NCBI RefSeq assembly: GCF_032118995.1
Contig: NC_092655.1
Span: forward strand, 14,461,223-14,525,222
DNA: 64,000 nt
Source: Asterias amurensis
Taxonomy: Eukaryota
Reading direction: 5' to 3'
Shown here: positions 1 through 36,547 of the stretch, piece by piece
Numbering within the stretch: position 1 is the stretch's first letter
How the letters are laid out: every line of letters starts with the position of its first letter
Notes under the pieces: generated by a model
Database searches by the model: none
Told to the model about the DNA's origin: nothing
What the model saw: only the letters and a program-made list of their open reading frames with translations
Program-made: the position numbers and the translations under genes

Positions 1-755
1 CTTGTTCTGGAGTGAGGCTTGTGCAGTCTGTCAGTGTAGGTTCGGCTTGAAGGCTTTGGTTGGCGATGTTGCATGCTTCTTCGATTGATATGTTGGTGAA
101 CAGTGACACGACATCAAAACTGACAAGGATATCAGTTGGACGGAGATGTATGTGCTTGATGATGTCGACTAACTTGCTTGTGTTGTTGATGTGATGTTCA
201 GTGAGGCCAACTAGTCGATGGAGGTTCTTGGTGAGGTGTGTTGCAATGTTGTAAGAAGGTGAACCCTGGGAAGCCACGATGGGGCGGAGAGGACCATCTG
301 GCTTGTTGATCTTGGGTTGGCAGAAGAAACGTGGGCAGGTGAATGCGGATGGCTTGAGGTGACGGTACGTGGTGTTGTCTATGACTTGCGCTTGATAGAG
401 AGTACAGAGTTTGGTGGTGAGTGTGCGTTCAATGACTGGGCTGGGGTTCCTTGGCAGGCATTGGTAGCTATTAGTTGACAGGATTTCATTTACTTGGTGG
501 TCATAATCCGTTGTAGACATTACCATAGTGGCATTACCCTTGTCCGCTGACATGATGTGGATGGACTTGTCTTTGTGCAGGGCTCAGATATCAGCATTTT
601 CTCGCCTGCTTGTGTAGGGTCTTGGTAACTTGGCGTTTGAAGTCTTTGCAGAATTTGGATGCGGACTTGGTTGGCGACTGTCTTGTCCAGATGTTTGAGT
701 GCAGGTTCAGGGGACTGATTGATGTCTTTGACTTGAATCATGCGAGGTGTGCTGG
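1..755 (-). mobile_element. Penelope-like element of the N lineage. Only the 5' part is present (RT N-terminal region, cut off by the window edge). It lies head-to-head with the next element.
   Basis: The - strand ORF 520..783 is identical in type to 15786..16079 and 22545..22838. The sequence matches 15297-16050. Confidence 0.8.
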
Positions 756-1176
756 CGCCCACACATTGCACGATTCCAGTCAAAGATATTATTCAGTCTA
801 CCGAACCTGCGCTCAAACATCTAGACAAGACATTCGTCAACCATATCCGCATCCAGATTCTTCAAACTCTTCAAACACCAAGTTACCAAGACCCAACACA
901 AGCAAGCAAGAACACGCCGCTATCCGAGCCCTGCACAAAGACAAGTCTATCCACATCATTTCAACGAACATTGGTAATGCCACCGTGTTCATGTGCACAA
1001 CAGATTCTGACCACAAGGTAACCGACATCCTGTCAACTGATACCTACCGACGCCTGCCAAGTAACTCCTGTTCAGTCATCGAACGCACCCCCACTGCTAA
1101 ATTCTGCACTCTCTATCAAGCGCAGGTCATAGACAACACCATGTACCGTCACCTCAAGCCATCCGCATCCGCCTAA
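610..1176 (+). pseudogene. RT N-terminal segment of PLE P1a
   Basis: Its C-terminal half aligns to the N-lineage RT N-terminus 'MSADKGNATMVMSTTDYDHQVNEILSTNTYQCLPRNPSPVIERTLTTKLCTLYQAQVIDNTTYRHLKPSA'. Stops and frameshifts follow downstream at 1177-1440. Confidence 0.75.
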
Positions 1177-2917
1177 TCACGTTTTTTTGGCCAACCTTAA
1201 GAGCCACAAGCCAGATGTTCCTCTCCGTCCCATCGTGGCGTCCCGGGGTCACCCACCTACAATACTGCAAGACACCCCACCAAGACCCTTCATCCACTAG
1301 TTGGCCTCACTGAACATAACATTAACAACTCAAGCAAGTTCGTCGACATTATCAAATACATACATCTCCGCCCAACTGAGATCCTTGTCAGTTTTGACAT
1401 CATGTCACTATTCACCAACATACCAACTGAAGAAGCATGCAACATCGCCGAACAATGCCTTCAAGCCTAACCTACACTGACAGACCGCACAAGACTCACT
1501 CCAGAACAAGTCCACGACCTCCTTATCACATGTTCTCCGCTTTTAGATTCAGGTGGCGAGACAAATTCTACGAACAAACCTCTGGGGCCACCATGGGATC
1601 TCCTCTATCCCCGGTCCTGATGGATTTGTTCATGGAGGAGTTTTAACTTGACGGTATCAAGAACGCCAATCTTAGCCCCAACCTCAGGTTCCGCTACATT
1701 GACGACACCTTTGTGGTTTTGGCCCAACGGCAAGACAGCACTCCAAAAGTTCTTCCATCAACTGAACAGTCATTATCTACGTATCCGATTCAACATGGAA
1801 CAAGAACAAAACAATGCTATCTCCTTCCTAGGTGCCGAAGTAACAAGACAAGCTGATGGCACTCTAGCCCACACGGTACATCACAAGCCAACGCACACCA
1901 ACAGATACATTCACAACTCATTATTCCACCATCCTCGCATCAAGTCTGCTGTCTCCAACACCTTGGTCCGTTGGACCTTGGACACCTGTGACAAGGGCAG
2001 CTTGAAGCAGGAACTACAACACATCAAGACATCACGTCAACCTAATGGCTACAAAACTTTCAACCTCAGCGAGCCCAAGCCAAGTCTCACACCAGATGAA
2101 CTACCAGAGTTCAAGGCTGCAATCTCCCTCCCAAACATTGGCCTATCTTCTCACAAGCTTCAACGTATCTTCATTCAAGCTGAAGTCAAGACCTTCCATA
2201 CAGCATCAAACAAGATTCAAGCATCGCTCCACACACACAAGGACAAGCAAGACACTCGAGACAAAGCCAGCGTTTACCACATTCCCTGCGATTACTGTGA
2301 AGTATACATCGTGGAACCAGGGCGCAATATCTCAACAAGAATCAAGGAACACAAAGCACATGGCACACTGGAACACCTCAACAATTCAGCCATCATCAAA
2401 TATTCACACGAACACGACAGCATCATCAAGTGGAATCAAGCCAAACTCATAGCTCATGTACAGTCCTGTCACCAATGCAGAGTCGGGGAGGCCATCGATA
2501 TACAAGCACGCCATACAGTTCCAGAAGACATCGGTTTCTTCATTAACGACATCTGGTCACACATCCTCAAGCCAACCCTTCCAGCAGCAGCTCACCACAA
2601 GAATGTCACACTCCAATGCACACACATCCAGCCAGCAATCAACTCACATGCATTACCGGCCAAGAACAGCTTTGATCCATCCCGCCCAAATGCTCATCCA
2701 TCCAGCACTTCTAAAGTTCGACCATTGCCTGTAGTCCAACATTCTCCTGAAGACGAGCAGAATAAACTGTTAGAAACATCGAGACCAAACCTGCTCTTTC
2801 CAGAGCCAATACTCACCTTAAGAGGTTTACACATGGTTGTCCCTGTAAATTCTTATTTCTCCACACCATGCAAAGCTTCAAACAATACATATCCAAGATG
2901 GGATTAAATCGCAACAA
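755..2917 (+). mobile_element. Penelope-like retroelement of the P lineage (copy P1a). It is degenerate and carries RT plus a C-terminal GIY-YIG endonuclease.
   Basis: The RT N-terminal region (ORF 610..1176 '...DHKVTDILSTDTYRRLP...CTLYQAQVIDNTMYRHLKPS') is followed by a stop- and frameshift-riddled '(F)FGQP*...PLRPIV' region. The N lineage shows this region intact as 'FFCQPKIHKPDGPLRPIMAS'. RT motifs 'GSPLSPVLMDLFMEEF' and 'RYIDDTFVV' lie at about 1590-1715. A 419-aa ORF (1648..2907) holds the thumb and the GIY-YIG motif 'VYHIPCDYCEVYIVEPGRNISTRIKEHK...SAIIKYSHEHDSIIKW...RVGEAIDI'. Confidence 0.85.
1648..2907 (+). pseudogene. PLE P1a ORF covering the RT thumb, linker, GIY-YIG endonuclease and C-tail. 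It is out of frame with the upstream RT because of a 1-nt insertion after YIDDTFVV.
   Basis: The GIY-YIG core lies at about 2272-2560. The N lineage reads DTFVV-RPYDKTALQEFF continuously, whereas P has 'ttttgg' in place of 'ttagg'. An in-frame TAA at about 1645-1647 follows MEEF in this copy. Confidence 0.8.
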
Positions 2918-4110
2918 ACCTAGGTAGAATAGCTAGAGAATGATCTCTTTATACTCAAAACTCTATTTCGAGATGCATTTTTCTCATTGTCTGTATTTTT
3001 TCTTTAATTTTTTTACGGCGACGGTGAACCATCTGCCTATTGGAGACCAATGGAAACTGCACCATTCCAGTTGCGGCCATGAAGACATCAATGGGAGCTG
3101 TGTATCTTTGAGGAAAACGACAGAAAAAGGTAAGTTTACATTAAGGGACCGTAAGTTGTTGAGATTTATCCGGAAATCAAGATTATGTCTAGATTTAAAA
3201 GGGGCTCCATGCTAAAATTTAGCTTTGAAAATCACCAGTTTTCCAATTGCTAGAGTCCTCATGAAAAAAATCTAAACCTCGCAGCATGAATATTGTTCTA
3301 TGGTGAAAAGTATTTAATGAGAATAGTGATTTTGTAATAACTTGATTGGCATATATTTCAGGAGTCTGCAGTTCTGCTGGGGATGTGGTGTGCTACCTGC
3401 CGATGACCAAAAGCCATGATGCAACAGTGCCTGACTATGCGGACAGCATCCCAGCTGTCATTTAAGTGCACCAAACATAGGTAGATAGCTGGAGAATGAT
3501 CTCTTTAATCTCTAAACTCTGTTGGGGAAGTGCATTTTGCTAATAGTTTGTATTTGTCGTTTATTTTTTACGGCGACGGTGAACTGGTTAAATGTTTAAC
3601 CATCTGCCCATGGGAGTCCAGTGGAAACTGCACATGCCGGCCATGAAGTAATCATTGGGACCTTTGTACGCTGTGAGCAAAATGACAAGACAGGGTAAGT
3701 TTATTTTTAGTTTGATTGTTGGCAAATTTTGTGATTTTGACTGGAGCATAACTATTTTCCTCTTCTGGATTAGTGATGTGAAAAAAATAACATTGTATTA
3801 CATAAATGTGCCAAATACAACCTTGCAACATGAACTATAATTGTTCTACAGTAAAAAGTATTTGGTGAAAATAATTTCACTGAAATGTCTTAATTGACAT
3901 ATATTTCAGGAGTCTGCAGATCTGCTTGGGACACCTGCTGATAACAAGCACCAACATGAAAACAGCCGAGAGGATGCCTGCCTATGCGGACAACATCCCA
4001 GTTGTCATTGAAGTGCACCAAACATAGGTAGATAGCTAGAGAATGATCTCTTTAATCTCGAAACTTCATTTCGCAGTGCATTTCATTTGCTTGGATCCTT
4101 TTTGTTCTTA
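2918..4110 (+). repeat. Three tandem M modules (2918-3478, 3479-4025, and a truncated one at 4026-about 4110) that follow the PLE 3' end. Each has an exon-like block, a donor AG|GTAAGTTT, an intron of about 230 bp and an acceptor TTTCAG|GAGTCTGCAG. The boundary motif is 'ataggtagatagctagagaatgatctctttaatctc'.
   Basis: Donors lie at about 3130 and 3699. Acceptors lie at about 3361 and 3903. The boundary motif lies at 2918, 3478 and 4025. The modules are about 70% identical to each other, yet the splice-signal blocks are conserved. Confidence 0.7.
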
Positions 4111-4439
4111 AGCAGCTCTATGAAAGTTGGCCCTGATGATCCAAGTCTTGATATGGTACTGATGCGAGTACATTGTAATTTTGTTGTAGATGATTGTGAC
4201 GACTGCGTGTCAACATGGACCATGAAGATGTGACGTCACAGTACAGAAAGATACATCATGGCTTGGGGAGATAGACTTATTCCTCAGCTACTCACCAGGG
4301 TCCTAAGTGGAATTTGAAGGTATGATCTGTTTTAGCGAAGCTTGAGATGAAAGTTTAGAAATCCATACAAGTGCAGACAATAGAAATTTCTTAGGTTTCA
4401 TTATTCAAACATAGTCCCATATACCTTAATAATAATAAT

Positions 4440-4760: not shown

Positions 4761-5164
4761 TTCTTTTTGATCATATTTAATACAGGATTAACACGTTCGA
4801 ACATCTTCAAGTTGGATGCATGAAGATGCTGTGCCACCTTATGCAACACCAATAAAACACTTGCTTCACCACCTCATCTAAGGCATCATGACAACAGATG
4901 AACATTGTCAACAGAATGAACCCAAAGAACACAAACGAGACGAAGAGGCAGACCAAGTTGGCGTTAGATGGATGACATCAGAGAATTTGGAAGCGTCACT
5001 TGGATGCGACAAGTGCAAGAACGATCAAGGTGGAATGGTGAAGAGGCCTTACTTCTGCAGTATGTAGCGACATTATCTAGATAGATATTTTGCCACTTAC
5101 ACAAAAATATTTACTCTGTACAAAGGCAAGACAACATAAGGTTATTTGTAAAAGTAAACTCACT

Positions 5165-7330: not shown

Positions 7331-8150
7331 GATAACAAGGTTATGACATTGTTTATGGTGTTTACATGTATATACGGTTTCGAGTACTCATTAACGAGGT
7401 TTTGTAATTACAAAGGTCATGCCATTTTCTATGGTTTTTATTAAGGGTGTTTGATTCAGGGAATGACCGGGTTGGTGGCTGGCGCTGTAAGGTTGACATT
7501 GTTTGCAGTGTTGTTAATTATGGGTGTTTGAGTACTCATTAACGATGTATTATGATCTCTTTTCACTGTTAATTGTGGGGTGGGAGATGACAACCTTCAC
7601 GTGGTCCACCCTGTTGTTAACTAATTGTCATCAAACAATAGAGCTTTATAACCATGTTTATAAAGCTCTATGCACCAAACCAATTTGTTAATGACATTGT
7701 GATGACATTTTCTTTGGTGTTTATTTAGAGAGTTTGAGTACTCATTAAGGTTGACATTGTTTGCAGTGTTAATTTAGTGTGTTTGAGTACTCATTAACGA
7801 TGTATTAGGATCTCTTTTAACTGTTAATTGTGGGGTGGGAGATGACAACCTTCACGTGGTCCACCCTGTTGTTAACTAATTGTCATCAAACAATAGAGCT
7901 ATATAAACAAAGCTCTATGCAGCAAAAACAAAATTTTAATTACAAGGTCATGACATTTTCCTTGGTGTTTATCTAGGGGATTTGAGTACTTATTAACGAT
8001 GTAGATTTTAAACGATCTCTTTAAACTGTTATTTGTGGGGTGGGAGGTGACAACCTTCACGTGGTCCATATCCTGTTGTTAACTAATTGTCATCAAACAT
8101 TAGAGCTATGAATATACAAGTTTAAAGCTCTATGCATCAAACCATACCCT
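7331..8150. repeat. A diverged partial 390-bp monomer, then a related 250-bp satellite in 3 copies (about 7525, 7775, 7985) with internal palindromes
   Basis: 'gtttgagtactcattaacgatgta...gttaattgtggggtgggagatgacaaccttcacgtggtccaccctgttgttaactaattgtcatcaaacaatagagct' occurs three times. It shares the 'tttgagtactcattaac' motif with the 390-bp satellite. It contains the palindromes 'atagagctttata...tataaagctctat' and CACGTG. Confidence 0.85.
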
Positions 8151-8234
8151 TTTCATGAAATGCCCGCAGTAGATTTGAACAAATGTGTGGAAATGTTGTT
8201 TGTTCTTTTATGCAAATCACTTGTTTATTTTGTA

Positions 8235-8620
8235 AGATGTTACGGGAAACAGCAGGGTCACGGCAAACGTGCGGCGTGCGCCGTCTCCGTTTTTAAGTAA
8301 ACTCATTTTGGGGAAGATGTATGCTGTTTAGTGTAACCCGTTCGTATGTACGCAAAAGAAACAAAACAAAGCGCCCGCCTAGCGCGTTAGCGCTGCTGGA
8401 ATAGAACGCGCGTATGTCATGTAACCCTGACGTCATAATCAATTCCATAAAAAAAATTACGAAATTGTAACATTTTGCCCATTTTTTTGACACCGAAAAA
8501 ATATGTTTCCCGCAGTAAAAATGTAAAAAGCTAACAACGGCAAAATTCTTCAAGATACTAAAAATATGCATTAAAATCTCTAACGTAATGGGAAACAGTC
8601 AGGGTCACGGCAAACGTGAA
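8235..8620. repeat. CpG-rich block bounded by the direct repeats 'gggaaacag(c/t)cagggtcacggcaaacgtg' at about 8243 and about 8589. It contains the CRE palindrome TGACGTCA at about 8428.
   Basis: Read directly from the sequence. Present again in copies B (about 30685-31066) and C (about 55970-56350). Confidence 0.6.
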
Positions 8621-11470: not shown

Positions 11471-13028
11471 AGGAACAGCTATCGTCCAATCATTTGCCTC
11501 CTTTGACCCCAGTGAAGGCGCTGAACAGATCGTTAATTAAAAGAGTCACTGGTCTCAAAGATCAGTAATGTGATTAACGCACGAAAGAGATTGGAACCAT
11601 CAAAAGCTCAAAATATGACCCATTCGGCTCGGTCCGTTAACAGCGCCAGCCACCAACCCGGTCATTACCACGCAGTGAAGACCGGGTACGAACACTGTTA
11701 TTCCCTAAATAAACCACAAGGGAAGTTGACTGGGTACCTTTTTAAAATGACTGTGGGATGAACACAGACAAATTGACTAGAGCGGGATTTCAACCAACGA
11801 CCTCCGGTTTAACGATTATTTTACAATCATTTAAAAGTTTATAAAACGTAAAGGGTTTACAAAGAAAAATTTACAAGTTAACAATTAAATATAGTTTAGG
11901 CAACATTTAATGCTGGAAATATACAAAGTTTACAAAATATATATCGTTTTAAAATAATATATATATATATAAATTATTGGCGAAAGTAACTTTATCTCTC
12001 TCTCTCTGCGTCCACGTCCTTGCATAGCAACAGTTAAACAACAAGGCTGTAAGATCACGTCTTTCCCAAACGGAACAGTGTCCTGACCATAGAGCTATGC
12101 CTTTCTGCAGAGGGGCTCGCAACAACACAACTCCACACTGACGCTGTGTTATTGTGCCAAATCAAACACATTATCATTAAAAAGATGAATTGTATTCCCA
12201 TATGCAAAAATAATTGTTCTTAAGCACCTCGTACCGGCTCATGCTGTGCTCCGGCTGTGCTCTGATTTTTGTTGTCTTATTTAGAAATGTCACCCTTTTT
12301 CCCTACATGCAATGACTGAGTCTGGTTACCTGGTATGGAGTCCTTCTCATCTTCACATGCCCTGTAACCACTAGAATCCTGTTGATGGTAAAGCGGTACT
12401 CTATTACTTGGACACACCTTTAAATCATGGAACTCTACTGAGTTGTATTACCGCACAGAGGGATCACGTCCACCAAGAAAGGTATATTATCACCCCTACT
12501 ATCAGTAATGTAACTCTACTAACCAAACTTGCAAGTCCTATACCCAGTTACTGCATGCGCAGCGTTGCACACTAACCTAAATCTACCAAGCTCATATCCG
12601 AGCACGCTTGCGTGTGACATCTTAATCTCCAACTTCACACCATTCGTCATTGTCTACACGTCGTGTAACAACCACGCACCCCATTTACTACACGTTCATT
12701 CTTAAACTAAAATGGAATAACTCCATTCGAAGTGCACTTTTCTCATTTTTTATTTTGTTTTGTCTCATATTTTTTCGAAGACGGTGTCATGCCATTCCAG
12801 TACCGACCAAGAAGACATCATTGGGAGCTATGTACGCTGTGAGGAAAACGACAGGACCAGGTAAGTTTATTTTCAGTCTGATTAATAGCTTGGAAAGTAA
12901 TGAGGGAGCGTAATTTGTTAAGGTTTATCCTAAAATAAACATTTTGTTCAGATTTAAAGGGGGCTCCATGCTCTAATTTAGCTTTGTAATTCACAAATTT
13001 TCCATTTGCTGGAGTCAAGATGAAAATT

Positions 13029-13040
13029 GGGGGGGGGGGG
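13029..13040. repeat. G12 homopolymer run inside the M intron. Other G runs lie at 18625-18632, 19784-19796, 35470-35484 and 42288-42298.
   Basis: 'attggggggggggggactcgattatgtaagatgc', read directly. Confidence 0.9.
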
Positions 13041-13406
13041 ACTCGATTATGTAAGATGCTATTGTGTTTGATACCGTTCAATTGCAATTCAAATATAAAG
13101 GGCCATACATTTTTTGACAGAAATTCTTCAGTTTCATTTCCAAATTGTAATCAAAAGGACATCAAGTCTGGGTTAATGTACCGACCAATGGGGAGAGGGT
13201 GATGGTATGAAACGTTGCGAGAACCAACTCCCTCTGAATTAACATAGTTTTCGATTAAGAAGTAATTTCCATGAATTTGGAAATTCTTGATATGTGCGTA
13301 TTATATTGTTCCTTTACTAATTTATGCGGGTTTACTGTATTAATGTTTATTATAATGGTATTCGCTTTTGTACAGTTTATGGAGTGGGCGCAATGTAAAT
13401 GAACAA

Positions 13407-13850
<444 letters not shown>

Positions 13851-14436
13851 ACTCAAGGACCCAATTTTGGGATGCTCTTTGAAATAATGGACCAATTTAA
13901 GGTGAAGGTTTTACAAATTGATATTTTGACTTGATTGACATATTTTCAGGAGTCTGCAGTTCTGCTGGGAATGTGGTGTACTACCTGTCGATGACTGAAG
14001 CTCACAAAACATAGGTACATAGCTAGAGAATTATCTCTTTAATCTCGTCTTCAGGGGAATGCTGGAATGCAGGCGGCGCCGGTGGTGGAGCTTAAGTTGC
14101 GCTGGATGGATGAGCATTTGGGAGGGAAGGATCAGAGCTGTTCTTGGCCGGTGATGCATGAGAGTTAATTGCTGGCTGGATGTGAATTGCATTGGAGTGT
14201 GACATTCTTTAGGTGAGCTGCTGCTGGGAGGGTTGGCTCGAGGATGGGTGACCAGATGTCCATAATGAAGAAACCTATGTCTCGTGGAACTTTATGATGT
14301 GCTTGTTTCTCGATTGCCTCCCTGACTCTGCATTGGTGTCAGGACTGTACAGGAGCTTCGAGTTCGGCTTGATTCCAATTGATGATGTGGTCGTGTTCTT
14401 GTGAATGTTTGATGATGGCTGATTTGTCGAGGTGTC

Positions 14437-15213
14437 TCAGTCTGCCATGTGCTTTGTGTCCTTGCTTCTTGTCGAGATGCTGCGCCAGGTTTCCGCGAAG
14501 TACACTTTACCGCAATCACAGGGAATGCGGTAAACGCCTGCTTTGTCTTGAGTGTCTCGCTTGTCCTTGTGTGTGTGGAGTGATGCTTGAATCTTGTTTG
14601 GTGCTGTGTGGAAGATCTTGACTTGAGCTTGACTGCAGATACTTTGAAACTTGTGAGAAGTGTGGCCGATATATGGGAGGGTGATTGCAGCCTTGAACTC
14701 TGGTTGTTCTTCTGTTGTGAGACTTGGCTTGGGCTGGCTAAGATTGAATGTCTTGTAGTCGTTAAGTTGAAGTGAAGTCTTGATGTGGTGTAGTTCCTGC
14801 TTCAAGCTGCCTTTGTCACAGGTGTTGAAGGCCCAGCAAACCAAGGTGTTGCAGACAGCAGACTTGAAGCGAGGATGATGGAATGATGAGTTGTGAAGGT
14901 ATCTATCGGGGTGTTTTGGCTTGCGATGTACCGTTTGGGCTATAGTGCCATCAGCTTGTCTTGTTACTTGGACGTCTAGGACGGAGATAGTGTTGTTTTG
15001 TTCTTGTTCCATGGTGAATTGGATGTGTGGATGTTGACTGTTCGGGTGATGGAAGAACTCTTGGAGTGCTGTCTTGTCGTAAGGCCTAACCACAAAGGTG
15101 TCGTTAATGTAGCGGAGCCAGAGGTTAGGGCAAAGATTGACCTTCTCGATGCTGTCAAGTTCAAACTCCCCCATGAACAAATCTGCCAGGACCGAGGATA
15201 GAGGATATCTCAT
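14437..15213 (-). pseudogene. PLE N1a RT core, thumb and start of GIY-YIG. The GIY-YIG domain is disrupted by a 1-nt deletion ('ggaacac' to 'ggacac').
   Basis: After the deletion the frame reads 'KDTKHMADWDTSTNQPSSNIH' in place of the P-lineage 'KEHKAHGTLEHLNNSAIIKYSHEH'. N2a (21034..21852) carries the same lesion. Confidence 0.75.
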
Positions 15214-15246
15214 GGCGGCCCCAGAGGTTTGTTCATAGAATTTGTC

Positions 15247-15849
15247 TCAACACCTGAAGCCGGAAGCGTAGACGCTGGTGATGAGGAGGTCGTGGACTTG
15301 TTCTGGAGTGAGGCTTGTGCGGTCTGTCAGTGTAGGTTCGGCTTGAAGGCTTTGGTTGGCGATGTTGCATGCTTCTTCGATTGGTATGTTGGTGAACAGT
15401 GACACGACATCAAAACTGACAAGGATATCAGTTGGACGGAGATGTATGTGCTTGATGATGTCGACTAACTTGCTTGTGTTGTTGATGTGATGTTCAGTGA
15501 GGCCAACTAGTCGATGGAGTTTCTTGGTGAGGTGTGTTGCAATGTTGTAAGAAGGTGAACCCTGGGAAGCCATGATGGGGCGGAGAGGACCATCTGGCTT
15601 GTGGATCTTGGGTTGGCAGAAGAAACGTGGGCAGGTGAATGCGGATGGCTTGAGGTGACGGTACGTGGTGTTGTCTATGACTTGCGCTTGATAGAGAGTA
15701 CAGAGTTTGGTGGTGAGTGTGCGTTCAATGACTGGGCTGGGGTTCCTTGGCAGGCATTGGTAGGTATTAGTTGACAGGATTTCATTTACTTGGTGGTCAT
15801 AATCCGTTGTAGACATGACCATAGTGGCATTACCCTTGTCCGCTGACAT
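15247..15849 (-). pseudogene. PLE N1a RT N-terminal segment (200 aa, open)
   Basis: 'MSADKGNATMVMSTTDYDHQVNEILS...FFCQPKIHKPDGPLRPIMASQGSPSYNIATHLTKKL...ILVSFDVVSLFTNIPIEEA'. Confidence 0.75.
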
Positions 15850-16033
15850 GATGTGGATGGACTTGTCTTTGTGCAGGGCTCAGATATCAGCATTTTCTCG
15901 CCTGCTTGTGTAGGGTCTTGGTAACTTGGCGTTTGAAGTCTTTGCAGAATTTGGATGCGGACTTGGTTGGCGACTGTCTTGTCCAGATGTTTGAGTGCAG
16001 GTTCAGGGGACTGATTGATGTCTTTGACTTGAA

Positions 16034-16069
16034 TCATGCGAGGTGTGCTGGCGCCCACACATTGCACGA
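16034..16069. other. Inversion junction between the head-to-head N1a and P2a 5' ends, centred on the palindrome GGCGCC
   Basis: N homology runs leftward from about 16034 ('IQVKDINQSPEPALKHLDKT' on the - strand). P homology runs rightward from about 16069 ('IPVKDMIQSTEPALKHLDKT' on the + strand). The spacer 'gtgtgctggcgcccacac' is nearly self-complementary. Confidence 0.7.
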
Positions 16070-18214
16070 TTCCAGTCAAAGATATGATTCAGTCTACCGA
16101 ACCTGCACTCAAACATCTAGACAAGACATTCGTCAACCATGTCCGCATCCAGATTCTTCAAACTCTTCAAACACCAAGTTACCAAGACCCAACACAAGCA
16201 AGCAAGAACATGCCGCTATCCGAGCCCTGCACATAGACAAGTCTATCCACATCATTTCAACGAACATTGGTAATGCCACCGTGTTCATGTGCACAACAGA
16301 TTCTGACCACAAGGTAACCGACATCCTGTCAACTGATACCTATTGACGCCTGCCAAGTAACTCCTGTTCAGTCATCGAACGCACCCCCACTGCTAAATTC
16401 TGCACTCTCTATCAAGCGCAGGTCATGGACAACACCATGTACCGTCACCTCAAGCCATACGCATCCGCCTAATCACGTTTTTTTGGCCAACCTTAAGGGC
16501 CACAAGCCAGATGTTCCTCTCCGTCCCATCGTGGCGTCCCGGGGTCACCCACCTACAATACTGCAAGACACCCCACCAAGACCCTTCATCCACTAGTTGG
16601 CCTCACTGAACATAACATTAACAACTCAAGCAAGTTCGTCGACATTATCAAATACATACATCTCCGTCCAACTGAGATCCTTGTCAGTTTTGACATCATG
16701 TCACTATTCACCAACATACCAACTGAAGAAGCATGCAACATCGCCGAACATTGCCTTCAAGCCTAACCTACACTTACACACCGCACAAGACTCACTCCAG
16801 AACAAGTCCACGACCTCCTTATCACCTGCTTCTCCGCTTTTAGATTCAGGTGGCGAGACAAATTCTACGAACAAACCTCTGGGGCCACCATGGGATCTCC
16901 TCTATCCCCAGTCCTGATGGATTTGTTCATGGAGGAGTTTTAACTTGACGGTATCAAGAACGCCAATCTTAGCCCCAACCTCAGGTTCCGCTACATTGAC
17001 GACACCTTTGTGGTTTTGGCCCAACAGCAAGACAGCACTCCAAAAGTTTTTCCATCAACTGAACAGTCAATATCTACGTATCCGATTCAACATGGAACAA
17101 GAACAAAACAATGCTATCTCCTTCCTAGGTGCCGAAGTAACAAGACAAGCTGATGGCACTCTAGCCCACACGATACATCACAAGCCAACGCACACCAACA
17201 GATACGTTCACAACTCATTATTCCACCATTCTCGCTTCAAGTCTGCTGTCTCCATCACCTTGGTCCGTTGGACCTTGGACACCTGTGACAAGGGCAGCTT
17301 GAAGCAGGAACTACAACACATCAAGACATCACGTCAACTTAATGGCTACAAAACTTTCAACCTCAGCGAGCCCAAGCCAAGTCTCACAACAGATGAACTA
17401 CCAGAGTTCAAGGCTGCAATCTCCCTCTCAAACATTGGCCTATCTTCTCACAAGCTTCAACGTATCTTCATTCAAGCTCAAGTCAAGACCTTCCATACAG
17501 CATCAAACAAGATTCAAGCATCACTCCACACACACAAGGACAAGCAAGACACTCGAGACAAAGCCAGCGTTTACCACATTCCCTGCGATTACTGTGAAGT
17601 ATACATCGTGGAACCAGGGCGCAATATCTCAACAAGAATCAAGGAACACAAAGCACATGGCACACTGGAACACCTCAACAATTCAGCCATCATCAAATAT
17701 TCACACGAACACGACAGCATCATCAAGTGGAATCAAGCCAAACTCATAGCTCATGTACAGTCCTGTCACCAATGCAGAGTCCGGGAGGCCATCGATATAC
17801 AAGCACGCCATACAGTTCCAGAAGACATCGGTTTCTTCATTAACGACATCTGGTCACACATCCTCAAGCCAACCCTTCCAGCAGCAGCTCACCACAAGAA
17901 TGTCACACTCCAATGCACACACATCCAGCCAGCAATCAACTCACATGCATTACCGGCCAAGAACAGCTTTGATCCATCCCGCCCAAATGCTCATCCATCC
18001 AGCACTTCTAAAGTTCGACCATCGCCTGTAGTCCAGCATTCTCCTGAAGACGAGCAGAATATACTGTTAGAAACATCAAGGCCAAACCTGCTCTTTCCAG
18101 AGCCAATACTCACCTTAAGAGGTTTACACATGGTTGTCCCCGTAAATTCTTATTTCTCCACACCATGCAAAGCTTCAAACAATACATATCCAAGATGGGA
18201 TTAAATCGCAACAA
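16051..18214 (+). mobile_element. Penelope-like retroelement of the P lineage (P2a). It is degenerate and about 97% aa identical to P1a in the 419-aa thumb and GIY-YIG ORF.
   Basis: ORFs 16036..16236 and 15906..16346 (in-frame stop at about 16343), and 16945..18204 (419 aa). The frameshift after YIDDTFVV is the same as in P1a. Confidence 0.85.
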
Positions 18215-20806
18215 ATCTAGGTAGAATAGCTAAAGAATGATTTCTTTATACTCAAAACTCTATTTCGAGATGCATTTTTCTCATTGTCTGTATTTTTTCT
18301 TTAATTTTTTTACGGCGACGGTGATCCATCTGCCTATTGGAGACCAACGGAAACTGCACCATTCCAGTTGCGGCCATGAAGACATCAATGGGAGCTGTGT
18401 ATCTTCGAGGAAAACGACAGGAAAAGGTAAGTTTATTTTAAGGTGGATTGATAGCTTGGGAAGTAATGAGGGACCGTATTGATAGCTTGGGAAGTAATGA
18501 GGGACCGTAAGTTGTTGAGATTTATCCTGAAATCAAGATTATGTCTAGATTTAAAAGGGGCTCCATGCTCAAATTTAGCTTTGTAATTCACAAATTTTCC
18601 ATTTGCTGGAGTCAAGATGAAAACTGGGGGGGGACTCGATTATGTAAGATGCTATTGTGTTTGATACCCTTCAATTGCAATTCAAATATAAAGGGCCATA
18701 CATTTTTGGACAGAAATTCTACAGTTTCATTTCCAAAATGTAATCAAAAGGACATCAAGTCTGAGCTTATGTACAGACCAATTTGTTTTTGCTGTATGAT
18801 GATGTCATGCTCTGAAAGAGCGCAATTTGTTTTCTGCACCATTTTAACTTGACATAGAGTCATGCGGTGTCCCCAAACTCCACTCACATGTTGGAAAATG
18901 AATGCATCACAAAACTCAAATTCACAAAAACTCAAAACTCAAGATCCACATCATTTACATTTTTGAGCGAAACTGTTTGCTTTTTTGGATTTTGGATTTT
19001 GAAGCAAACACTTTGGTACATGAGAAAATAAATACAGTGAAAAGTATTTGACGTGAGTGTATATATATGGTGTCCTGATTGAAATGTATTTCAGGAGTCT
19101 GCGTTTATGGTTTAAAGGCAGTGGACACTATTGTTAGTTACTCAAAATAATTATTATCGTCAAACCTTACTTGGTAACTAGGAATGGGGAGAGGGTGATG
19201 GTATAAAACATTGCGAGAACCAACTCCCTCTGAATTAACGTAGTTTTCGATAAAGAAGTAGTTTTCCCTGAATTTGGTGCTCTGATTTTTGTCCTACCAA
19301 TTTATGCATGCGCAGCGTTGCACACTAACCTAAATCTACCAAGCTCATATCCGAGCATGCTTGCGTGTGACATCTTAATCTCCAACTTCACACCATTCGT
19401 CATTGTCTACACGTCGTGTAACAACCACGCACCCCTTTTATTACACCTTCATTCTTAAACTAAAATGGAATAACTCTGATTCGAAGTGCACTTTCCTCAG
19501 TTTTTGTTTTGTTTTGTCTTATATTTTTTCGAAGACGGTGTCATGCCATTCCAGTACCGACCAAGAAGACATCATTGGGAGCTATGTACGCTGTGAGGAA
19601 ACCGACAGGACAGGTAAGTTCATTTTCAGTTTGAATGATAGCTTAGAAAGTAATGAGGGAGAGTAATTTGTTAAGGTTTATCTTAAAATAAACATTTTGT
19701 TCAGATTTAAAAGGGGCTCCACGCTCTAATTTAGCTTGGTTATTCACAAATTTTCCATTTGCTGGAGTCAAGATGAAAATTGGGGGGGGGGGGGACTCGA
19801 TTATGTAAGATGCTATCGTGTTTGATACCCTTCAATTGCAATTCAAATATAAAGGGCCATACATTTTTGGACAGAAATTCTTCAGTTTCATTTCCAAATT
19901 GTCATCAAAAGGACATCAAGTCTGAGTTAATGTACCGACCAATGGGGAGAGGGTGATGGTATAAAACGTTGCGAGAACCAACTCCCTCTGAATTAAAATA
20001 GTTTTCGATTAAGAAGTAATTTTCCATGAATTTGGAAATTCTTGGATTGTGCATATATTGTTCCTTTACTAATATGTGGGTTTACTGTATTAATGTTTTG
20101 CAATTTGTCCTGTAAGGTTCTTGTTCATTCAATTGTTTGGATTATTATAATGTTATCCGCTTTTGTACAGCTTATGGAATGGGCGCAATGGTAATGAACA
20201 AACTATTATTATTAATATTACTATTATTATTAGTTTTTGTTTCGAGACCTCAGCATTTGATTTTGAGGTTTCGAAATCAAGCATCTGAAAGCACATAAGT
20301 TTGTGTAACAAGGGTGGGTGTGCTTTCTTTCATTATTGTCTTGCAACTTCGACGATCAATTGAGCTCAAAGTTTCACAAGTTTTTACTTCATGCATATGT
20401 TGACATACGTCACCAAGAGTGAGGACTGGGCTTTGACAATTACCTATAGTGTCCAGTGTCTTTAAGCCTTTAGTCCACAAACTGTCCTGTCGGTTTCTTC
20501 GCAAAAAGTTCTTGAAAGTTGGTTTAATGGAAATAACAAGTTCATGACAATTGTTCGACTGTAAAGAAAATTTGAGAGAAAGAAAGCATAACAAATTATC
20601 ATCGAAAAACTCAAGGACCCAATTTTGGGATGCTCTTTGTAATAATGGACCAATTTAAGGTGGAGGTTTTACACTTAATATTTTGACTTGATTGACATAT
20701 TTTCAGGAGTCTGCAGTTCTGCTGGGAATGTGGTGTACTACCTGTCGATGACTGAAGCTCACAAAACATAGGTACATAGCTAGAGATTTATCTCTTTATA
20801 ATCTCG
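18215..20806 (+). repeat. Two long M modules (about 18215-19300 and about 19300-20806). Donors GTAAGTT lie at about 18427 and about 19617. Acceptors lie at about 19090 and about 20706. A G13 run lies at about 19784. A degenerate microsatellite remnant lies at about 20195-20250.
   Basis: Homology to 12505-14040 and 2918-4110. 'ctattattattaatattactattattattagtttttgtttcgag' is the eroded counterpart of the (ATT)n/(GTT)n tract. Confidence 0.6.
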
Positions 20807-22811
20807 TCTTCAGGGGAATGCTGGAATGCAGGCGGCGCCGGTGGTGGAGCTTAAGTTGCGCTGGATGGATGAGCATTTGGGAGGGAAGGATCAGAGCTGT
20901 TCTTGGCCGGTGATGCGTGAACGTTGATTGCTGGCTGGATGTGAATTGCATTGGAGTGTAACATTCTTTAGGTGAGCTGCTGCTGGGAGGGTTGGCTCGA
21001 GGATTGGTGACCAGATGTCCATAATGAAGAAACCTATGTCTCGTGGAACTTTATGATGTGCTTGTATCTCGATGGCCTCCCTGACTCTGCATTGGTGTCA
21101 GGACTGTACAGGAGCTTTGAGTTCGGCTTGATTCCAATTGATGATGTGGTCGTGTTCTTGTGAATGTTTGATGATGGCTGATTTGTCGAGGTGTCCCAGT
21201 CTGCCATGTGCTTTGTGTCCTTGATTCTTGTTGAGATGCTGCGCCAGGTTTCCGCGAAGTACACTTTACTGCAATCACAGGGAATGCGGTAAACGCCTGC
21301 TTTGTCTTGAGTGTCTCGCTTGTCCTTGTGTGTGTGGAGTGATGCTTGAATCTTGTTTGGTGCTGTGTGGAAGATCTTGACTTGAGCTTGACTGAAGATA
21401 CTTTGAAACTTGTGAGAAGTGTGGCCGATATCTGGGAGGGTGATTGCAGCCTTGAACTCTGGTTGTTCATCTGTTGTGAGACTTGGCTTGGGCCGGCTAA
21501 GATTGAATGTCTTGTAGTCGTTAAGTTGAAGTGAAGTCTTGATGTGGTGTAGTTCCTGCTTCAAGCTGCCTTTGTCACAGATGTTGAAGGCCCAGCAAAC
21601 CAAGGTGTTGCAGACAGCAGACTTGAAGCGAGGATGATGGAATGATGAGTTGTGAAGGTATCTATCGGGGTGTTTTGGCTTGCGATGTACCGTTTGGGCT
21701 ATAGTGCCATCAGCTTGTCTTGTTACTTGGACGTCTAGGACAGAGATAGTGTTGTTTTGTTCTTGTTCCATGGTGAATTGGATGTGTGGATGTTGACTGT
21801 TCAGGTGATGGAAGAACTCTTGGAGTGCTGTCTTGTCGTAAGGCCTAACCACAAAGGTGTCGTTAATGTAGCGGAGCTAGAGGTTAGGGCAAAGATTGAC
21901 CTTCTCGATGCTGTCAAGTTCAAACTCCTCCATGAACAAATCTGCCAGGACCGGGGATAGAGGATATCTCATGGCGGCCCCAGAGGTTTGTTCATAGAAT
22001 TTGTCTCACCACCTGAAGCTGGAAGCGTAGACGCTGGTGATGAGGAGGTCGTGGACTTGTTCTGGAGTGAGGCTTGTGCAGTCTGTCAGTGTAGGTTCGG
22101 CTTGAAGGCTTTGGTTGGCGATGTTGCATGCTTCTTCGATTGATATGTTGGTGAACAGTGACACGACATCAAAACTGACAAGGATATCAGTTGGACGGAG
22201 ATGTATGTGCTTGATGATGTCGACTAACTTGCTTGTGTTGTTGATGTGATGTTCAGTGAGGCCAACTAGTCGATGGAGGTTCTTGGTGAGGTGTGTTGCA
22301 ATGTTGTAAGAAGGTGAACCCTGGGAAGCCACGATGGGGCGGAGAGGACCATCTGGCTTGTTGATCTTGGGTTGGCAGAAGAAACGTGGGCAGGTGAATG
22401 CGGATGGCTTGAGGTGACGGTACGTGGTGTTGTCTATGACTTGCGCTTGATAGAGAGTACAGAGTTTGGTGGTGAGTGTGCGTTCAATGACTGGGCTGGG
22501 GTTCCTTGGCAGGCATTGGTAGCTATTAGTTGACAGGATTTCATTTACTTGGTGGTCATAATCCGTTGTAGACATGACCATAGTGGCATTACCCTTGTCC
22601 GCTGACATGATGTGGATGGACTTGTCTTTGTGCAGGGCTCAGATATCAGCATTTTCTCGCCTGCTTGTGTAGGGTCTTGGTAACTTGGCGTTTGAAGTCT
22701 TTGCAGAATTTGGATGCGGACTTGGTTGGCGACTGTCTTGTCCAGATGTTTGAGTGCAGGTTCAGTGGACTGATTGATGTCTTTGACTTGAATCATGCGA
22801 GGTGTGCTGGC
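20800..22811 (-). mobile_element. Penelope-like retroelement of the N lineage (N2a), head-to-head with P1b
   Basis: The - strand ORFs are 22545..22838, 22006..22608 and 21034..21852. The last reads through to 'GVYRIPCDCSKVYFAETWRSISTRIKDTKHMADWDTS...' and shows the shared GIY-YIG frameshift. Confidence 0.85.
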
Positions 22812-24973
22812 GCCCACACATTGCACGATTCCAGTCAAAGATATTATTCAGTCTACCGAACCTGCGCTCAAACATCTAGACAAGACATTCGTCAACCATA
22901 TCCGCATCCAGATTCTTCAAACTCTTCAAACACCAAGTTACCAAGACCCAACACAAGCAAGCAAGAACACGCCGCTATCCGAGCCCTGCACAAAGACAAG
23001 TCTATCCACATCATTTCAACGAACATTGGTAATGCCACCGTGTTCATGTGCACAACAGATTCTGACCACAAGGTAACCGACATCCTGTCAACTGATACCT
23101 ACCGACGCCTGCCAAGTAACTCCTGTTCAGTCATCGAACGCACCCCCACTGCTAAATTTTGCACTCTCTATCAAGCGCAGGTCATAGACAACACCATGTA
23201 CCGTCACCTCAAGCCATCCGCATCCGCCTAATCACGTTTTTTTGGCCAACCTTAAGAGCCACAAGCCAGATGTTCCTCTCCGTCCCATCGTGGCGTCCCG
23301 GGGTCACCCACCTACAATACTGCAAGACACCCCACCAAGACCCTTCATCCACTAGTTGGCCTCACTGAACATAACATTAACAACTCAAGCAAGTTCGTCG
23401 ACATTATCAAATACATACATCTCCGCCCAACTGAGATCCTTGTCAGTTTTGACATCATGTCACTATTCACCAACATACCAACTGAAGAAGCATGCAACAT
23501 CGCCGAACAATGCCTTCAAGCCTAACCTACACTGACAGACCGCACAAGACTCACTCCAGAACAAGTCCACGACCTCCTTATCACCTGCTTCTCCGCTTTT
23601 AGATTCAGGTGGCGAGACAAATTCTACGAACAAACCTCTGGGGCCACCATGGGATCTCCTCTATCCCCGGTCCTGATGGATTTGTTCATGGAGGAGTTTT
23701 AACTTGACGGTATCAAGAACGCCAATCTTAGCCCCAACCTCAGGTTCCGCTACATTGACGACACCTTTGTGGTTTTGGCCCAACGGCAAGACAGCACTCC
23801 AAAAGTTCTTCCATCAACTGAACAGTCATTATCTACGTATCCGATTCAACATGGAACAAGAACAAAACAATGCTATCTCCTTCCTAGGTGCCGAAGTAAC
23901 AAGACAAGCTGATGGCACTCTAGCCCACACGGTACATCACAAGCCAACGCACACCAACAGATACATTCACAACTCATTATTCCACCATCCTCGCATCAAG
24001 TCTGCTGTCTCCAACACCTTGGTCCGTTGGACCTTGGACACCTGTGACAAGGGCAGCTTGAAGCAGGAACTACAACACATCAAGACATCACGTCAACCTA
24101 ATGGCTACAAAACTTTCAACCTCAGCGAGCCCAAGCCAAGTCTCACACCAGATGAACTACCAGAGTTCAAGGCTGCAATCTCCCTCCCAAACATTGGCCT
24201 ATCTTCTCACAAGCTTCAACGTATCTTCATTCAAGCTCAAGTCAAGACCTTCCATACAGCATCAAACAAGATTCAAGCATCGCTCCACACACACAAGGAC
24301 AAGCAAGACACTCGAGACAAAGCCAGCGTTTACCACATTCCCTGCGATTACTGTGAAGTATACATCGTGGAACCAGGGCGCAATATCTCAACAAGAATCA
24401 AGGAACACAAAGCACATGGCACACTGGAACACCTCAACAATTCAGCCATCATCAAATATTCACACGAACACGACAGCATCATCAAGTGGAATCAAGCCAA
24501 ACTCATAGCTCATGTACAGTCCTGTCACCAATGCAGAGTCGGGGAGGCCATCGATATACAAGCACGCCATACAGTTCCAGAAGACATCGGTTTCTTCATT
24601 AACGACATCTGGTCACACATCCTCAAGCCAACCCTTCCAGCAGCAGCTCACCACAAGAATGTCACACTCCAATGCACACACATCCAGCCAGCAATCAACT
24701 CACATGCATTACCGGCCAAGAACAGCTTTGATCCATCCCGCCCAAATGCTCATCCATCCAGCACTTCTAAAGTTCGACCATTGCCTGTAGTCCAACATTC
24801 TCCTGAAGACGAGCAGAATAAACTGTTAGAAACATCGAGACCAAACCTGCTCTTTCCAGAGCCAATACTCACCTTAAGAGGTTTACACATGGTTGTCCCT
24901 GTAAATTCTTATTTCTCCACACCATGCAAAGCTTCAAACAATACATATCCAAGATGGGATTAAATCGCAACAA
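22812..24973 (+). mobile_element. PLE of the P lineage (P1b), the copy-B counterpart of 755-2917
   Basis: ORFs 22665..23231 and 23704..24963 are near-identical to 610..1176 and 1648..2907. Confidence 0.85.

Positions 24974-34949: not shown

Positions 34950-36547
<1,598 letters not shown>

What the first reader, a model, noticed from the sequence alone, without database searches (positions are those of the whole stretch)
2918..4110. M modules: tandem and dispersed repeats that preserve a GT-AG intron-like architecture next to every PLE
The exon-like blocks are only about 70% identical between modules. Every module nevertheless keeps a strong donor ((A/C)AG|GTAAGTT(T/C)A) and the acceptor 'atatatttcag|GAGTCTGCAG'. 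Intron length ranges from about 230 bp to about 1.1 kb, with microsatellites inserted. The module boundary 'ACATAG|gtagatagctagag' also looks like a donor. Modules abut PLE 3' ends on both strands' pairs (2918, 14040, 18215, 20806). Penelope-type elements are unusual among retroelements in retaining a spliceosomal intron, and their terminal repeats can carry hammerhead ribozymes. M may be the lineage's intron-bearing UTR or pLTR, or a co-amplified spliced non-coding unit.
Basis: partly seen in the sequence, partly recalled or inferred. Interest (0 to 1): 0.6.

Follow-up and report, generated by a model that had tools for sequence, protein, structure and literature searches.

The report
Retroelement pair inserted into intron-like host repeat
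The "M modules" are an old three-unit host tandem repeat with well-kept splice-site-like signals, into which a pair of Penelope-like retroelements inserted once; large DNA duplications then copied the arrangement, so M is not part of the retroelement and the case is mostly ordinary.

Summary
Five distinct ~0.55-1.35 kb M copies per 22-kb unit keep an invariant donor (G|GTAAGTT(T/C)A) and acceptor (TTTCAG|GAGTCTGC). Intron-like gaps are 215-1093 nt, and M touches every PLE 3' end.

The link to the PLE is not supported.
- All M copies lie on the + strand on both sides of head-to-head PLE pairs, so the pair sits inside M, with ~50-60 bp of M repeated on both sides.
- The PLE's own terminus is complete in the right arm: endonuclease end, ~290-nt UTR, then the first codons of the next ORF (MQSFKQYI...). 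It contains no M.
- An independent related PLE copy on another contig ends at the same base and has no M.
- "M next to every PLE" is one old event (arms 85% identical) copied by a 6.8-kb duplication (98.2%) and a 22-kb tandem array (>99%).
- No hammerhead ribozyme was found, no PLE sequence lies beyond M, and no reading frame is conserved in M.

M is best read as an old host tandem triplication of a non-coding two-exon-like cassette. Its splice-like motifs are conserved more than chance predicts (P~0.001). Whether it is spliced could not be tested.

The parts
1..755 (-). PLE pair A, left arm. It is cut by the window start. It is a 5'-truncated Penelope-like element on the minus strand. Full equivalents are 20806-22810 and 43310-45315.
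   Evidence: It is the inverted partner of 756-2757 at 84-85% identity. tblastn to full-length RT+GIY-YIG homologs gives hits.
756..2893 (+). PLE pair A, right arm. The order is: RT from about residue 212 of an 863-aa homolog, the GIY-YIG region, ORF end near 2580, a ~290-nt UTR, then ATG 2868 with the first ~9-12 codons of the next ORF (MQSFKQYISKMG). This is the complete PLE 3' terminus. Equivalents are 16052-18190, 22811-24949, 38559-40697 and 45316-47454.
   Evidence: Homologs P0001-P0005 match at 49-54% identity with E down to 1e-190. P0002 has RVT_1 and GIY-YIG. The N-terminal motif is found only here, chance 0.04 per 22 kb. L003 shares the sequence up to 2893.
2894..2956 (+). Right-hand copy of the duplicated M target segment. 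It covers the end of exon B, the CTAG|GTAG boundary and ...TTTATACTC.
   Evidence: It aligns to the intact M1/M2 boundary at 3450-3515. L003 homology stops at 2893.
2904..3478 (+). M1 module. Exon-A-like block to 3129, intron-like 3130-3361, exon-B-like 3362-3478. Copies are at 24960-25534 and 47465-48039.
3479..4028 (+). M2 module. Exon-A-like block to 3694, intron-like 3695-3909, exon-B-like 3910-4028. Copies are at 25535-26084 and 48040-48589.
4029..4083 (+). Partial M unit (boundary plus ~55 nt) that closes the array.
   Evidence: M1 positions 1-63 match 4022-4083 at 84%
12700..14046 (+). M3, the first module of the ancestral array. Donor at 12860|12861, intron-like 12861-13949 with microsatellites and TE pieces, exon-B-like 13950-14014. 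The left-hand copy of the duplicated target segment is ~13996-14046. A copy is at ~35145-36553.
14047..16051 (-). PLE pair B, left arm. It reads almost entirely in one frame (2 stops and 1 frameshift in 549 codons). It lacks the last ~136 nt of the PLE 3' terminus. It joins M through a 3-nt microhomology (CTC/GAG).
16052..18190 (+). PLE pair B, right arm. The palindrome centre is at GGCGCC ~16050, with no spacer.
18191..19102 (+). M4, 96.5% identical to M1. Donor at 18426|18427, intron-like 18427-19094, exon B cut off after 8 nt at 19102.
19452..20805 (+). M5, a paralog of M3. Donor at 19613|19614, intron-like 19614-20706, exon-B-like 20707-20771, then the duplicated target segment to 20805.
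20806..24949 (.). Complete PLE pair A' (left arm minus strand, right arm plus strand). The block 20588-25202, which includes this pair, is 98.2% identical to the pair-B block 13830-18443.

Best explanation
M is not a component of the Penelope-like element. It is a pre-existing host sequence: an old tandem triplication (modules a, b, c plus a partial unit, ~70-80% identical) of a ~550-bp non-coding cassette. The cassette contains a GT-AG intron-like interval.

One canonical PLE with a C-terminal GIY-YIG endonuclease inserted once, at the boundary between modules a and b. It inserted as a head-to-head pair of 5'-truncated copies, which is the usual PLE insertion form. About 50-60 bp of M (roughly ATTTAAG...CATAG|GTAGATAGCTAGAGAATGATCTCTTTAATCTC) was left on both sides. 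The simplest cause is two nicks that far apart.

Much later the block U-M(a)-PLE pair-M(b) was duplicated at the DNA level (98.2% identity). The whole 22-kb unit was then amplified in tandem (99.2-99.7%). This is why every PLE end in the window touches an M.

Shown:
- the orientation of M
- the PLE terminus without M
- the independent copy without M
- the duplication hierarchy
- the absence of a hammerhead
- the absence of a conserved ORF

Inferred:
- The ~50-60-bp flanking repeat is a target-site duplication.
- The donor, acceptor and boundary motifs are conserved because M is, or recently was, a set of exons of a non-coding host transcript. I put that last step at about 45%.
For: - All M matches are on the + strand, while the PLE arms alternate.
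- M sequence in the same orientation flanks both outer ends of each pair.
- The right arm contains the ORF end, the UTR and the conserved PLE N-terminus (MxSLKxxIxxLYGE in P0002, P0020, P0036, P0038, P0040, P0080, P0056). That motif occurs nowhere else in the window.
- Published PLE biology places the insertion's 3' end inside the start of the next ORF (PMC11167929).
- L003, an independent copy at 75-80% nucleotide identity, shares the UTR and ATG (MQIFKHH) up to window 2893. It then has an unrelated flank with no M.
- No PLE N-terminal homology is found in M.
- No PLE-like sequence lies outside the pairs.
- Arm-to-arm identity is 85%, pair A to pair B is 98.2%, and the 22-kb copies are above 99%.
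- Head-to-head, 5'-truncated, palindromic-junction insertions are the described PLE norm (PMC8557442, PMC3846280).
- Both DNA strands are cleaved and extended in vitro (PMC11167929).
- Splice-like blocks are the longest invariant runs, P~0.001.
- A branch-point-like CTT(G/A)AT lies 15-20 nt upstream of each AG.
Against: - The two flanking M segments are only ~75% identical. That is no closer than each is to other module boundaries (81-84%). The target-site duplication is therefore the most economical reading, not a proven one.
- The TSD lengths I could cite for PLEs are 8-10 bp (PMC3846280), so 50-60 bp would be unusually long. PLE TSDs are, however, described as variable in length (PMC9977147).
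- The left arms lack ~136 nt of the terminus, more than the published 30-40-nt 'tail'.
- For the splicing part there are no transcript data.
- Exon-like blocks are not consistently better conserved than the intron. For M1 vs M3, exon A is 78% and the intron 5' part is 82%.
- Between-sample differences do not discriminate.
- No promoter or poly(A) signal was identified.
Confidence: 0.72

Rival explanations
1. M is the PLE lineage's own intron-bearing 5' UTR or pLTR. It would be carried along whenever the element transposes, as with the 75-bp intron in the D. virilis Penelope pLTR.
For: M starts within a few bases of the right-arm 3' ends. PLEs are known to keep introns in the 5' UTR/pLTR (PMC8557442).
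Against: - M is inverted relative to the left arms.
- The actual UTR and ORF start are at 2580-2893 and hold no M.
- L003 ends at the same base without M.
- There is no nucleotide similarity between M and any PLE part.
- There is no PLE N-terminal coding in M.
- All contacts derive from one event.
Confidence: 0.03
2. M is an intron-containing host fragment that the PLE machinery mobilised or transduced. The precedent is the intron-containing NRPS gene framed by Penelope pLTRs in Adineta vaga. An alternative form is a 3' read-through template.
For: PLEs can disperse intron-containing host sequences in trans (PMC3846280). M1-M2 follow the right arm head-to-tail.
Against: - That mechanism leaves the cargo framed by pLTRs and a short TSD. 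No PLE-derived sequence lies beyond the M array.
- A homologous module (M3/M5) already sits on the other side of the pair in the same orientation. This needs insertion into M, not delivery of M.
- The modules are far older (70-80% identity) than would fit co-delivery with arms that are 85% identical to each other.
Confidence: 0.05
3. M is a tandem array of a non-autonomous PLE derivative, that is, a non-LTR retrozyme-like element. It would be amplified through the PLE and processed by a self-cleaving ribozyme.
For: M has a tandem head-to-tail arrangement with a partial last unit next to a PLE. Animal retrozymes are proposed to derive from PLE pLTRs (bioRxiv 10.64898/2026.07.22.740005).
Against: - No hammerhead or other ribozyme was found at Rfam gathering threshold or at E<=10.
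- No CUGANGA...GAAA core with a helix II exists anywhere in the window.
- M has no similarity to the PLE UTR.
- There are only three old units, and no sign of a dispersed family in the protein or metagenome searches.
Confidence: 0.03
4. M is a transcriptionally inert tandem repeat or the remnant of a dead small gene. On this view the GT-AG signals are fossils kept by shared descent and local gene conversion, not by present-day splicing.
For: - No reading frame is conserved. The frames are broken by 1-, 7- and 52-nt indels, a lost ATG and stops.
- The intron is as conserved as the exon between M1 and M3.
- Between-sample differences in the exon-like blocks (1.6%) equal those in the decayed PLE (1.7%).
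- There is no unusual RNA structure.
- No spliced model or transcript ORF was found. The only hit is an unspliced genomic ORF, P0121.
Against: - Invariant positions are significantly clustered on the donor, the acceptor and a second donor-like boundary.
- All five copies keep both sites despite 0.45-0.86 kb of insertions inside the interval and none inside the exon-like blocks.
- CpG is retained in exon A, observed/expected 0.9-1.15 against a window median of 0.60.
Confidence: 0.35

Closest known systems
Canonical endonuclease-positive Penelope-like elements (RT plus C-terminal GIY-YIG) inserted as inverted, 5'-truncated pairs
   Same: - RT and GIY-YIG homology and the DKG motif (SADKGNAT).
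- 5' truncation.
- A head-to-head pair with a palindromic junction and no spacer.
- A 3' end lying just inside the start of the next ORF.
- Flanking direct repeats of target DNA.
   Different: - No hammerhead motif was detectable in the UTR.
- The arms differ by ~136 nt at their 3' ends rather than by the 30-40-nt tail.
- The flanking repeat is ~50-60 bp, longer than the 8-10 bp reported in A. vaga.
- Both copies are decayed.
The 5'-UTR intron inside the Penelope pLTR (D. virilis, 75 bp) and in Chlamys-3_cRei (398 bp)
   Same: A GT-AG interval lies physically close to a PLE end.
   Different: Those introns lie inside PLE sequence between the pLTR and the ORF start. Here the ORF-end to ORF-start interval is contiguous (2580-2893) and holds no M. 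M lies outside the element and in a fixed genomic orientation, not a fixed PLE orientation.
PLE-mediated mobilisation of intron-containing host genes (Adineta vaga NRPS framed by Pen3a pLTRs; PMC3846280)
   Same: A host sequence that contains an intron sits adjacent to PLE sequence.
   Different: No pLTRs frame M and there is no short TSD around M. M flanks the PLE rather than the reverse.
Non-LTR retrozymes (tandem hammerhead-bearing non-autonomous PLE derivatives)
   Same: Short tandem units near a PLE.
   Different: There is no ribozyme and no similarity to the PLE pLTR. Only three diverged units exist.
Tandemly duplicated non-coding exon cassettes of host long non-coding RNA or small-RNA host genes (from general knowledge, for example the repeated units of the mammalian SNURF-SNRPN/SNORD116 host transcript)
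   Same: Repeated units have poorly conserved, non-coding exons but well-kept splice sites. Their introns tolerate large insertions.
   Different: No transcript evidence exists and no conserved intronic small RNA was detected. This is an analogy for how M may work, not a membership claim.

Membership tests
Penelope-like element (canonical EN+), applied to the GC-rich blocks | Reverse transcriptase of the PLE/telomerase-like clade, with the DKG motif upstream | tested here: met
   The stitched 549-aa ORF hits full-length homologs at E=1e-190 and 54% identity. The homologs carry RVT_1. SADKGNATMVM is present. Pfam on the decayed copy itself was not significant.
Penelope-like element (canonical EN+), applied to the GC-rich blocks | C-terminal GIY-YIG endonuclease | tested here: met
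   GVYRIPCDCGKVYFAETWRSISTRSKDTKH aligns to GVYRIPCECGKVYIGETGR...RLKEH of P0001 and P0002. P0002 scores PF01541.
Penelope-like element (canonical EN+), applied to the GC-rich blocks | 5' truncation with tandem or inverted (head-to-head) copies, and a 3' end inside the start of the next ORF | tested here: met
   The arms start at homolog residue ~212 at the palindrome centre. The ORF start MQSFKQYI lies at 2868-2893. The described architecture is in PMC8557442 and PMC11167929.
Penelope-like element (canonical EN+), applied to the GC-rich blocks | Hammerhead ribozyme in the pLTR/UTR (typical of Penelope/Poseidon, Neptune and Nematis, but not universal) | tested here: not met
   Rfam gathering and E<=10 scans found none. 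A custom core scan found none. The copies are decayed, so loss by mutation is possible.
M as PLE pLTR/UTR | Fixed orientation relative to the PLE ORF at every end | tested here: not met
   M is + at both the minus-strand and plus-strand arm ends.
M as PLE pLTR/UTR | Located between ORF end and ORF start of tandem units, and present at independent copies | tested here: not met
   The interval 2580-2893 has no M. L003 lacks M.
PLE-mobilised intron-containing host gene | Cargo framed by PLE terminal repeats and a target-site duplication | tested here: not met
   No PLE-like sequence lies outside the pairs at word size 7 and E<=0.01.
Non-LTR retrozyme | A self-cleaving hammerhead in each tandem monomer | tested here: not met
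Spliceosomal (U2-type GT-AG) intron | Consensus 5' splice site, branch point, pyrimidine tract and AG at the sequence level | tested here: met
   G|GTAAGTT in all copies, with AG|GTAAGT in four of the five modules, which is fully complementary to the U1 5' end (general knowledge). CTT(G/A)AT...TATATTTCAG| precedes each acceptor.
Spliceosomal (U2-type GT-AG) intron | Removal from RNA in vivo | not testable with these tools
   No transcript data were available. The only database relative of the spliced peptide is an unspliced genomic ORF. The host species is not among the annotated proteomes.
Protein-coding exons | A reading frame conserved across paralogs | tested here: not met
   Stops, a lost ATG and 1-, 7- and 52-nt indels are present.

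The most novel reading that the evidence does not exclude
The M array is a lineage-specific, truly spliced non-coding host transcript built from tandemly duplicated exon pairs, with its splice sites under selection. The PLE pair then sits in one of its inter-module introns. The ~50-60-bp flanking repeat would record two PLE nicks made that far apart at inverted AT-rich sites (ATTTAA / TTTAAT). That would be an unusually long PLE target-site duplication. It would also be a natural footprint of the both-strand cleavage and extension seen in vitro.
Probability: 0.3. Interest if true: 0.35.

Novelty: new member of a known kind. Interest (0 to 1): 0.2.

Why it matters
The main value is corrective. 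An apparent "intron-bearing module attached to every PLE" would have suggested a new PLE architecture. It resolves instead into one ordinary PLE insertion multiplied by segmental duplication. This shows that adjacency counts inside a tandemly duplicated region must not be read as independent events.

Two smaller points may interest PLE specialists:
- The locus shows cleanly that this echinoderm PLE's 3' end lies ~26 nt into the next ORF. An independent copy confirms the position.
- It offers a candidate ~50-60-bp target duplication with a head-to-head pair, which fits both-strand nicking.

The M cassette itself is a candidate spliced non-coding locus, but nothing yet sets it apart from many lineage-specific repeats.

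Tried and rejected
- **Hammerhead or other ribozyme.** I ran Rfam at gathering threshold on the whole window. I ran it at E<=10 on 2300-4300 and 12500-21300. I also ran a custom CUGANGA/helix II/GAAA scan. Nothing was found.
- **tRNA or SINE head in M.** None was found.
- **Coding potential of M.** I examined three frames of five spliced modules, and an ancestral-consensus ORF read by eye from the same alignments. No frame is conserved.
- **Spliced gene model or transcript ORF.** The search with the spliced M1 peptide found only P0121, an unspliced genomic ORF.
- **Independent M loci.** L001 and L002 proved to be the same locus from other samples. Two JGI metagenome scans with M motifs found nothing.
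- **PLE sequence beyond M, or PLE N-terminal coding inside M.** None was found.
- **Exon versus intron conservation and between-sample polymorphism.** Both tests were inconclusive.
- **RNA structure in the exon-like blocks, the boundary and the PLE terminus.** No z-score was below -1.5. An earlier script of my own for this timed out.
- **Promoter search by CpG content.** The strongest peak (11200-11800) looks like TE sequence and gave no usable promoter evidence.
- **Host identification through the IDH exon.** The best match is only 76% identical, so the species was not identified beyond echinoderm-like.
- **Pfam on the decayed PLE ORFs.** These scans gave no significant hits. Identity rests on homologs.
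- **"Both PLE ends abut ATTAAA".** I considered and dropped this as a firm claim. It is clear for the left arm. The right junction can only be placed within 2893-2903.

Full report
**Setting**

The window is eukaryotic. It consists of a ~22.06-kb unit repeated in tandem about 2.7 times at 99.2-99.7% identity. The array ends at ~59354, followed by a 31-bp minisatellite and an NAD-isocitrate-dehydrogenase exon. The nearest relatives of the retroelement proteins come from starfish, sea urchins and a crinoid, so the host is an echinoderm-like animal. The species is not among the annotated proteomes searched.

**Observation**

Within one unit there are five distinct M copies and one partial unit, all on the + strand:
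- M1 2904-3478
- M2 3479-4028
- partial unit 4029-4083
- M3 ~12700-14046
- M4 18191-19102
- M5 ~19452-20805

M1/M4 (96.5%) and M3/M5 (90-98%) are recent paralogs. There are therefore only three old lineages, a = M3/M5, b = M1/M4 and c = M2, at about 70-80% identity.

Every copy keeps G|GTAAGTT(T/C)A and TTTCAG|GAGTCTGC. The interval between them is 232, 215, 1089, 668 and 1093 nt. The long versions contain (ATT)n and (GCTGTC)n microsatellites and pieces of a MITE/SINE-like element.

The raw motif counts far exceed shuffles (9 against 0.67, and 12 against 0.46), but they are copies of one ancestor. The fairer test is across the three old lineages. There, 58.8% of ungapped columns are invariant and they are clustered. 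Four runs of at least 10 nt occur against 0.61 expected (P~0.001). These are the acceptor with the start of exon B (16 nt), two blocks at the module boundary (14 and 11 nt, the latter spanning CATAG|GTA), and the donor (10 nt). A branch-point-like CTT(G/A)AT precedes each acceptor.

**The neighbouring elements are real PLEs**

The GC-rich blocks are head-to-head inverted pairs. Pair B is 14047-18190 and pair A is 20806-24949; pair A's equivalent is cut by the window start. The arms are 85% identical and there is no spacer at the centre.

The left arm of pair B reads almost entirely in one frame. A stitched 549-aa product matches full-length proteins at E=1e-190 and 49-54% identity. The 863-aa homolog P0002 scores RVT_1 and GIY-YIG. 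The DKG and GIY-YIG motifs are visible directly. The arms begin at about residue 212 of P0002, exactly at the palindrome centre.

This matches the published PLE insertion form: 5'-truncated, often with an inverted copy, and a palindromic junction (PMC8557442, PMC3846280).

**Where the PLE ends**

Full-length homologs start with M-x-S-L-K-x-x-I-x-x-L-Y-G-E. The right arms carry ATG at 2868 encoding MQSFKQYISKMG, about 290 nt after the endonuclease domain ends. This motif occurs only at right-arm ends in the window. The chance expectation is 0.04 per 22 kb, and I defined the motif after seeing the sequences.

An independent, 5'-truncated copy of a related PLE lies on another contig (L003; 75-80% nucleotide identity). 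It shares the same UTR and ORF start (MQIFKHH, compare MQTFKHH in P0020). Its similarity to the window stops at window base 2893, after which its flank is unrelated.

This fits the finding that PLE reverse transcription starts inside the beginning of the next tandem ORF (PMC11167929). The element's own ORF-end, UTR and ORF-start junction is thus contiguous at 2580-2893 and holds no M. The left arms stop ~136 nt short of this terminus and join M through a 3-nt microhomology.

**M is not part of the PLE**

1. M has the same genomic orientation at minus-strand and plus-strand arm ends. A PLE-borne UTR or pLTR would be mirrored.
2. M sequence lies on both sides of each pair. The left flank ends at ...CATAGGTACATAGCTAGAGAATTATCTCTTTAATCTC. 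The right flank restarts ~25-35 nt before the CTAG|GTAG boundary. Roughly 50-60 bp are therefore present twice, as expected for an insertion into M with a target duplication.
3. There is no nucleotide similarity between any PLE part and M. No PLE-like sequence lies beyond the M array. No PLE N-terminal coding is found in M.
4. L003 shows the same PLE terminus without M.
5. The block 13830-18443 equals 20588-25202 at 98.2% while the arms differ by 15%. The 22-kb copies are above 99% identical. All nine PLE-M contacts in the window (the left end of the first pair lies before the window start) therefore descend from one insertion.
6. No hammerhead or other known RNA family is detectable.

**Caveats on the insertion model**

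The two flanking M segments are ~75% identical. That is no closer than each is to other boundaries (81-84%). The duplication is the simplest reading, not a proven one.

The PLE duplications I could cite are 8-10 bp (PMC3846280), although PLE duplications are described as variable in length (PMC9977147). Both-strand cleavage and extension by a PLE protein in vitro (PMC11167929) would naturally give a head-to-head pair and a duplication equal to the nick spacing. The exactly shared truncation point of the arms fits snap-back copying better (PMC3846280). I cannot choose between these two.

**What M is**

No reading frame survives across the modules. Exon A differs by 1-nt and 7-nt indels, exon B by a 52-nt deletion, the candidate ATG is AAG in M3, and M2 has stops.

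The conceptual spliced peptide has one database relative, an unspliced genomic ORF from the same locus in another sample. Two metagenome scans found no M.

Exon-like blocks are not consistently better conserved than the intron. Differences between samples are 1.6% in exon-like blocks, 3.1% in introns and 1.7% in the decayed PLE. No block folds unusually well. CpG is retained in exon A and upstream of M3/M5, with observed/expected of 0.9-1.4 against a median of 0.60.

The positive evidence for function is therefore limited to three points:
- the clustered invariance of the splice-like and boundary motifs
- the survival of both sites in all copies
- the fact that all large insertions fell inside the intron-like interval or at the boundary

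I read M as an old host tandem triplication of a non-coding two-exon-like cassette. It may still be spliced (about 45%). Otherwise it is a fossil kept by descent and conversion (about 35%).

**Comparison with known systems**

The PLE part is a canonical endonuclease-positive PLE in its usual inverted-pair form. The notable deviations are a long flanking repeat, a ~136-nt arm difference and no detectable ribozyme.

M fails the defining tests for three families:
- a pLTR/UTR (orientation, position, presence at independent copies)
- PLE-mobilised host cargo (no framing pLTRs)
- a retrozyme (no ribozyme)

It resembles tandemly duplicated non-coding exon cassettes of host RNA genes. This is an analogy only.

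**Verdict**

The PLE-linked interpretation is rejected, and the weak fallback (a co-amplified non-coding unit) is retained only in the sense of DNA-level co-duplication. The finding is largely ordinary, and interest is low.

Noticed in passing
5045-7330, 27101-29773, 49605-55063: A satellite with 293-, 392- and 399-bp unit variants. The third 22-kb copy has expanded to eight near-identical 399-bp units (51878-55052).
   Followed up: no
59355-59900: A 31-bp minisatellite (17 copies) lies exactly where the 22-kb tandem array stops. The third copy ends at unit coordinate ~11618.
   Followed up: no
63390-63557 (+): An exon of an NAD-dependent isocitrate dehydrogenase subunit ([34 protein letters not shown]). 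The best database match is only 76% identical, so the host species is not among the annotated proteomes.
   Followed up: partly
20236-20283 and 20230-20470; related pieces at 19103-19290, 13170-13260, 19935-20020: A hairpin-containing MITE/SINE-like element, with a weak mir-3036-like Rfam hit at E=0.13. It is inserted in the long M3/M5 introns and at the truncation point of M4 exon B.
   Followed up: partly
14047-16051 (-) versus 16052-18190 (+): The left arms are much less decayed than the right arms (2 stops and 1 frameshift in 549 codons, against many frameshifts). The left arms also lack the last ~136 nt of the PLE terminus, more than the published 30-40-nt 'tail'.
   Followed up: partly
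11200-11800 and 8100-8900: CpG-island-like peaks, with observed/expected up to 1.93 and 1.80. The first contains CCAAT, E-box and TATA-like motifs. It also has a tRNA B-box-like sequence on the minus strand (~11770-11800), so it may be a young TE rather than a promoter.
   Followed up: partly
13407-13829 versus 35854-36336: The (ATT)n and (GCTGTC)n microsatellites inside the M3 intron differ in length between the 22-kb copies.
   Followed up: no
18447-18509: A perfect 31-bp tandem duplication lies in the M4 intron just after the donor. It is absent from M1.
   Followed up: no
L002 1-262 (ENA ERZ23486795 scaffold): In another sample the sequence upstream of window position 3248 (inside the M1 intron) is replaced by unrelated DNA. 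This is either a structural variant lacking M1 exon A and the PLE, or a chimeric short-read scaffold.
   Followed up: partly
3450-3495: A hairpin can form across the end of exon B and the module boundary (CCAGCTGTCATTTA / TAGGTAGATAGCTGG). The fold z-score is only -1.5.
   Followed up: partly
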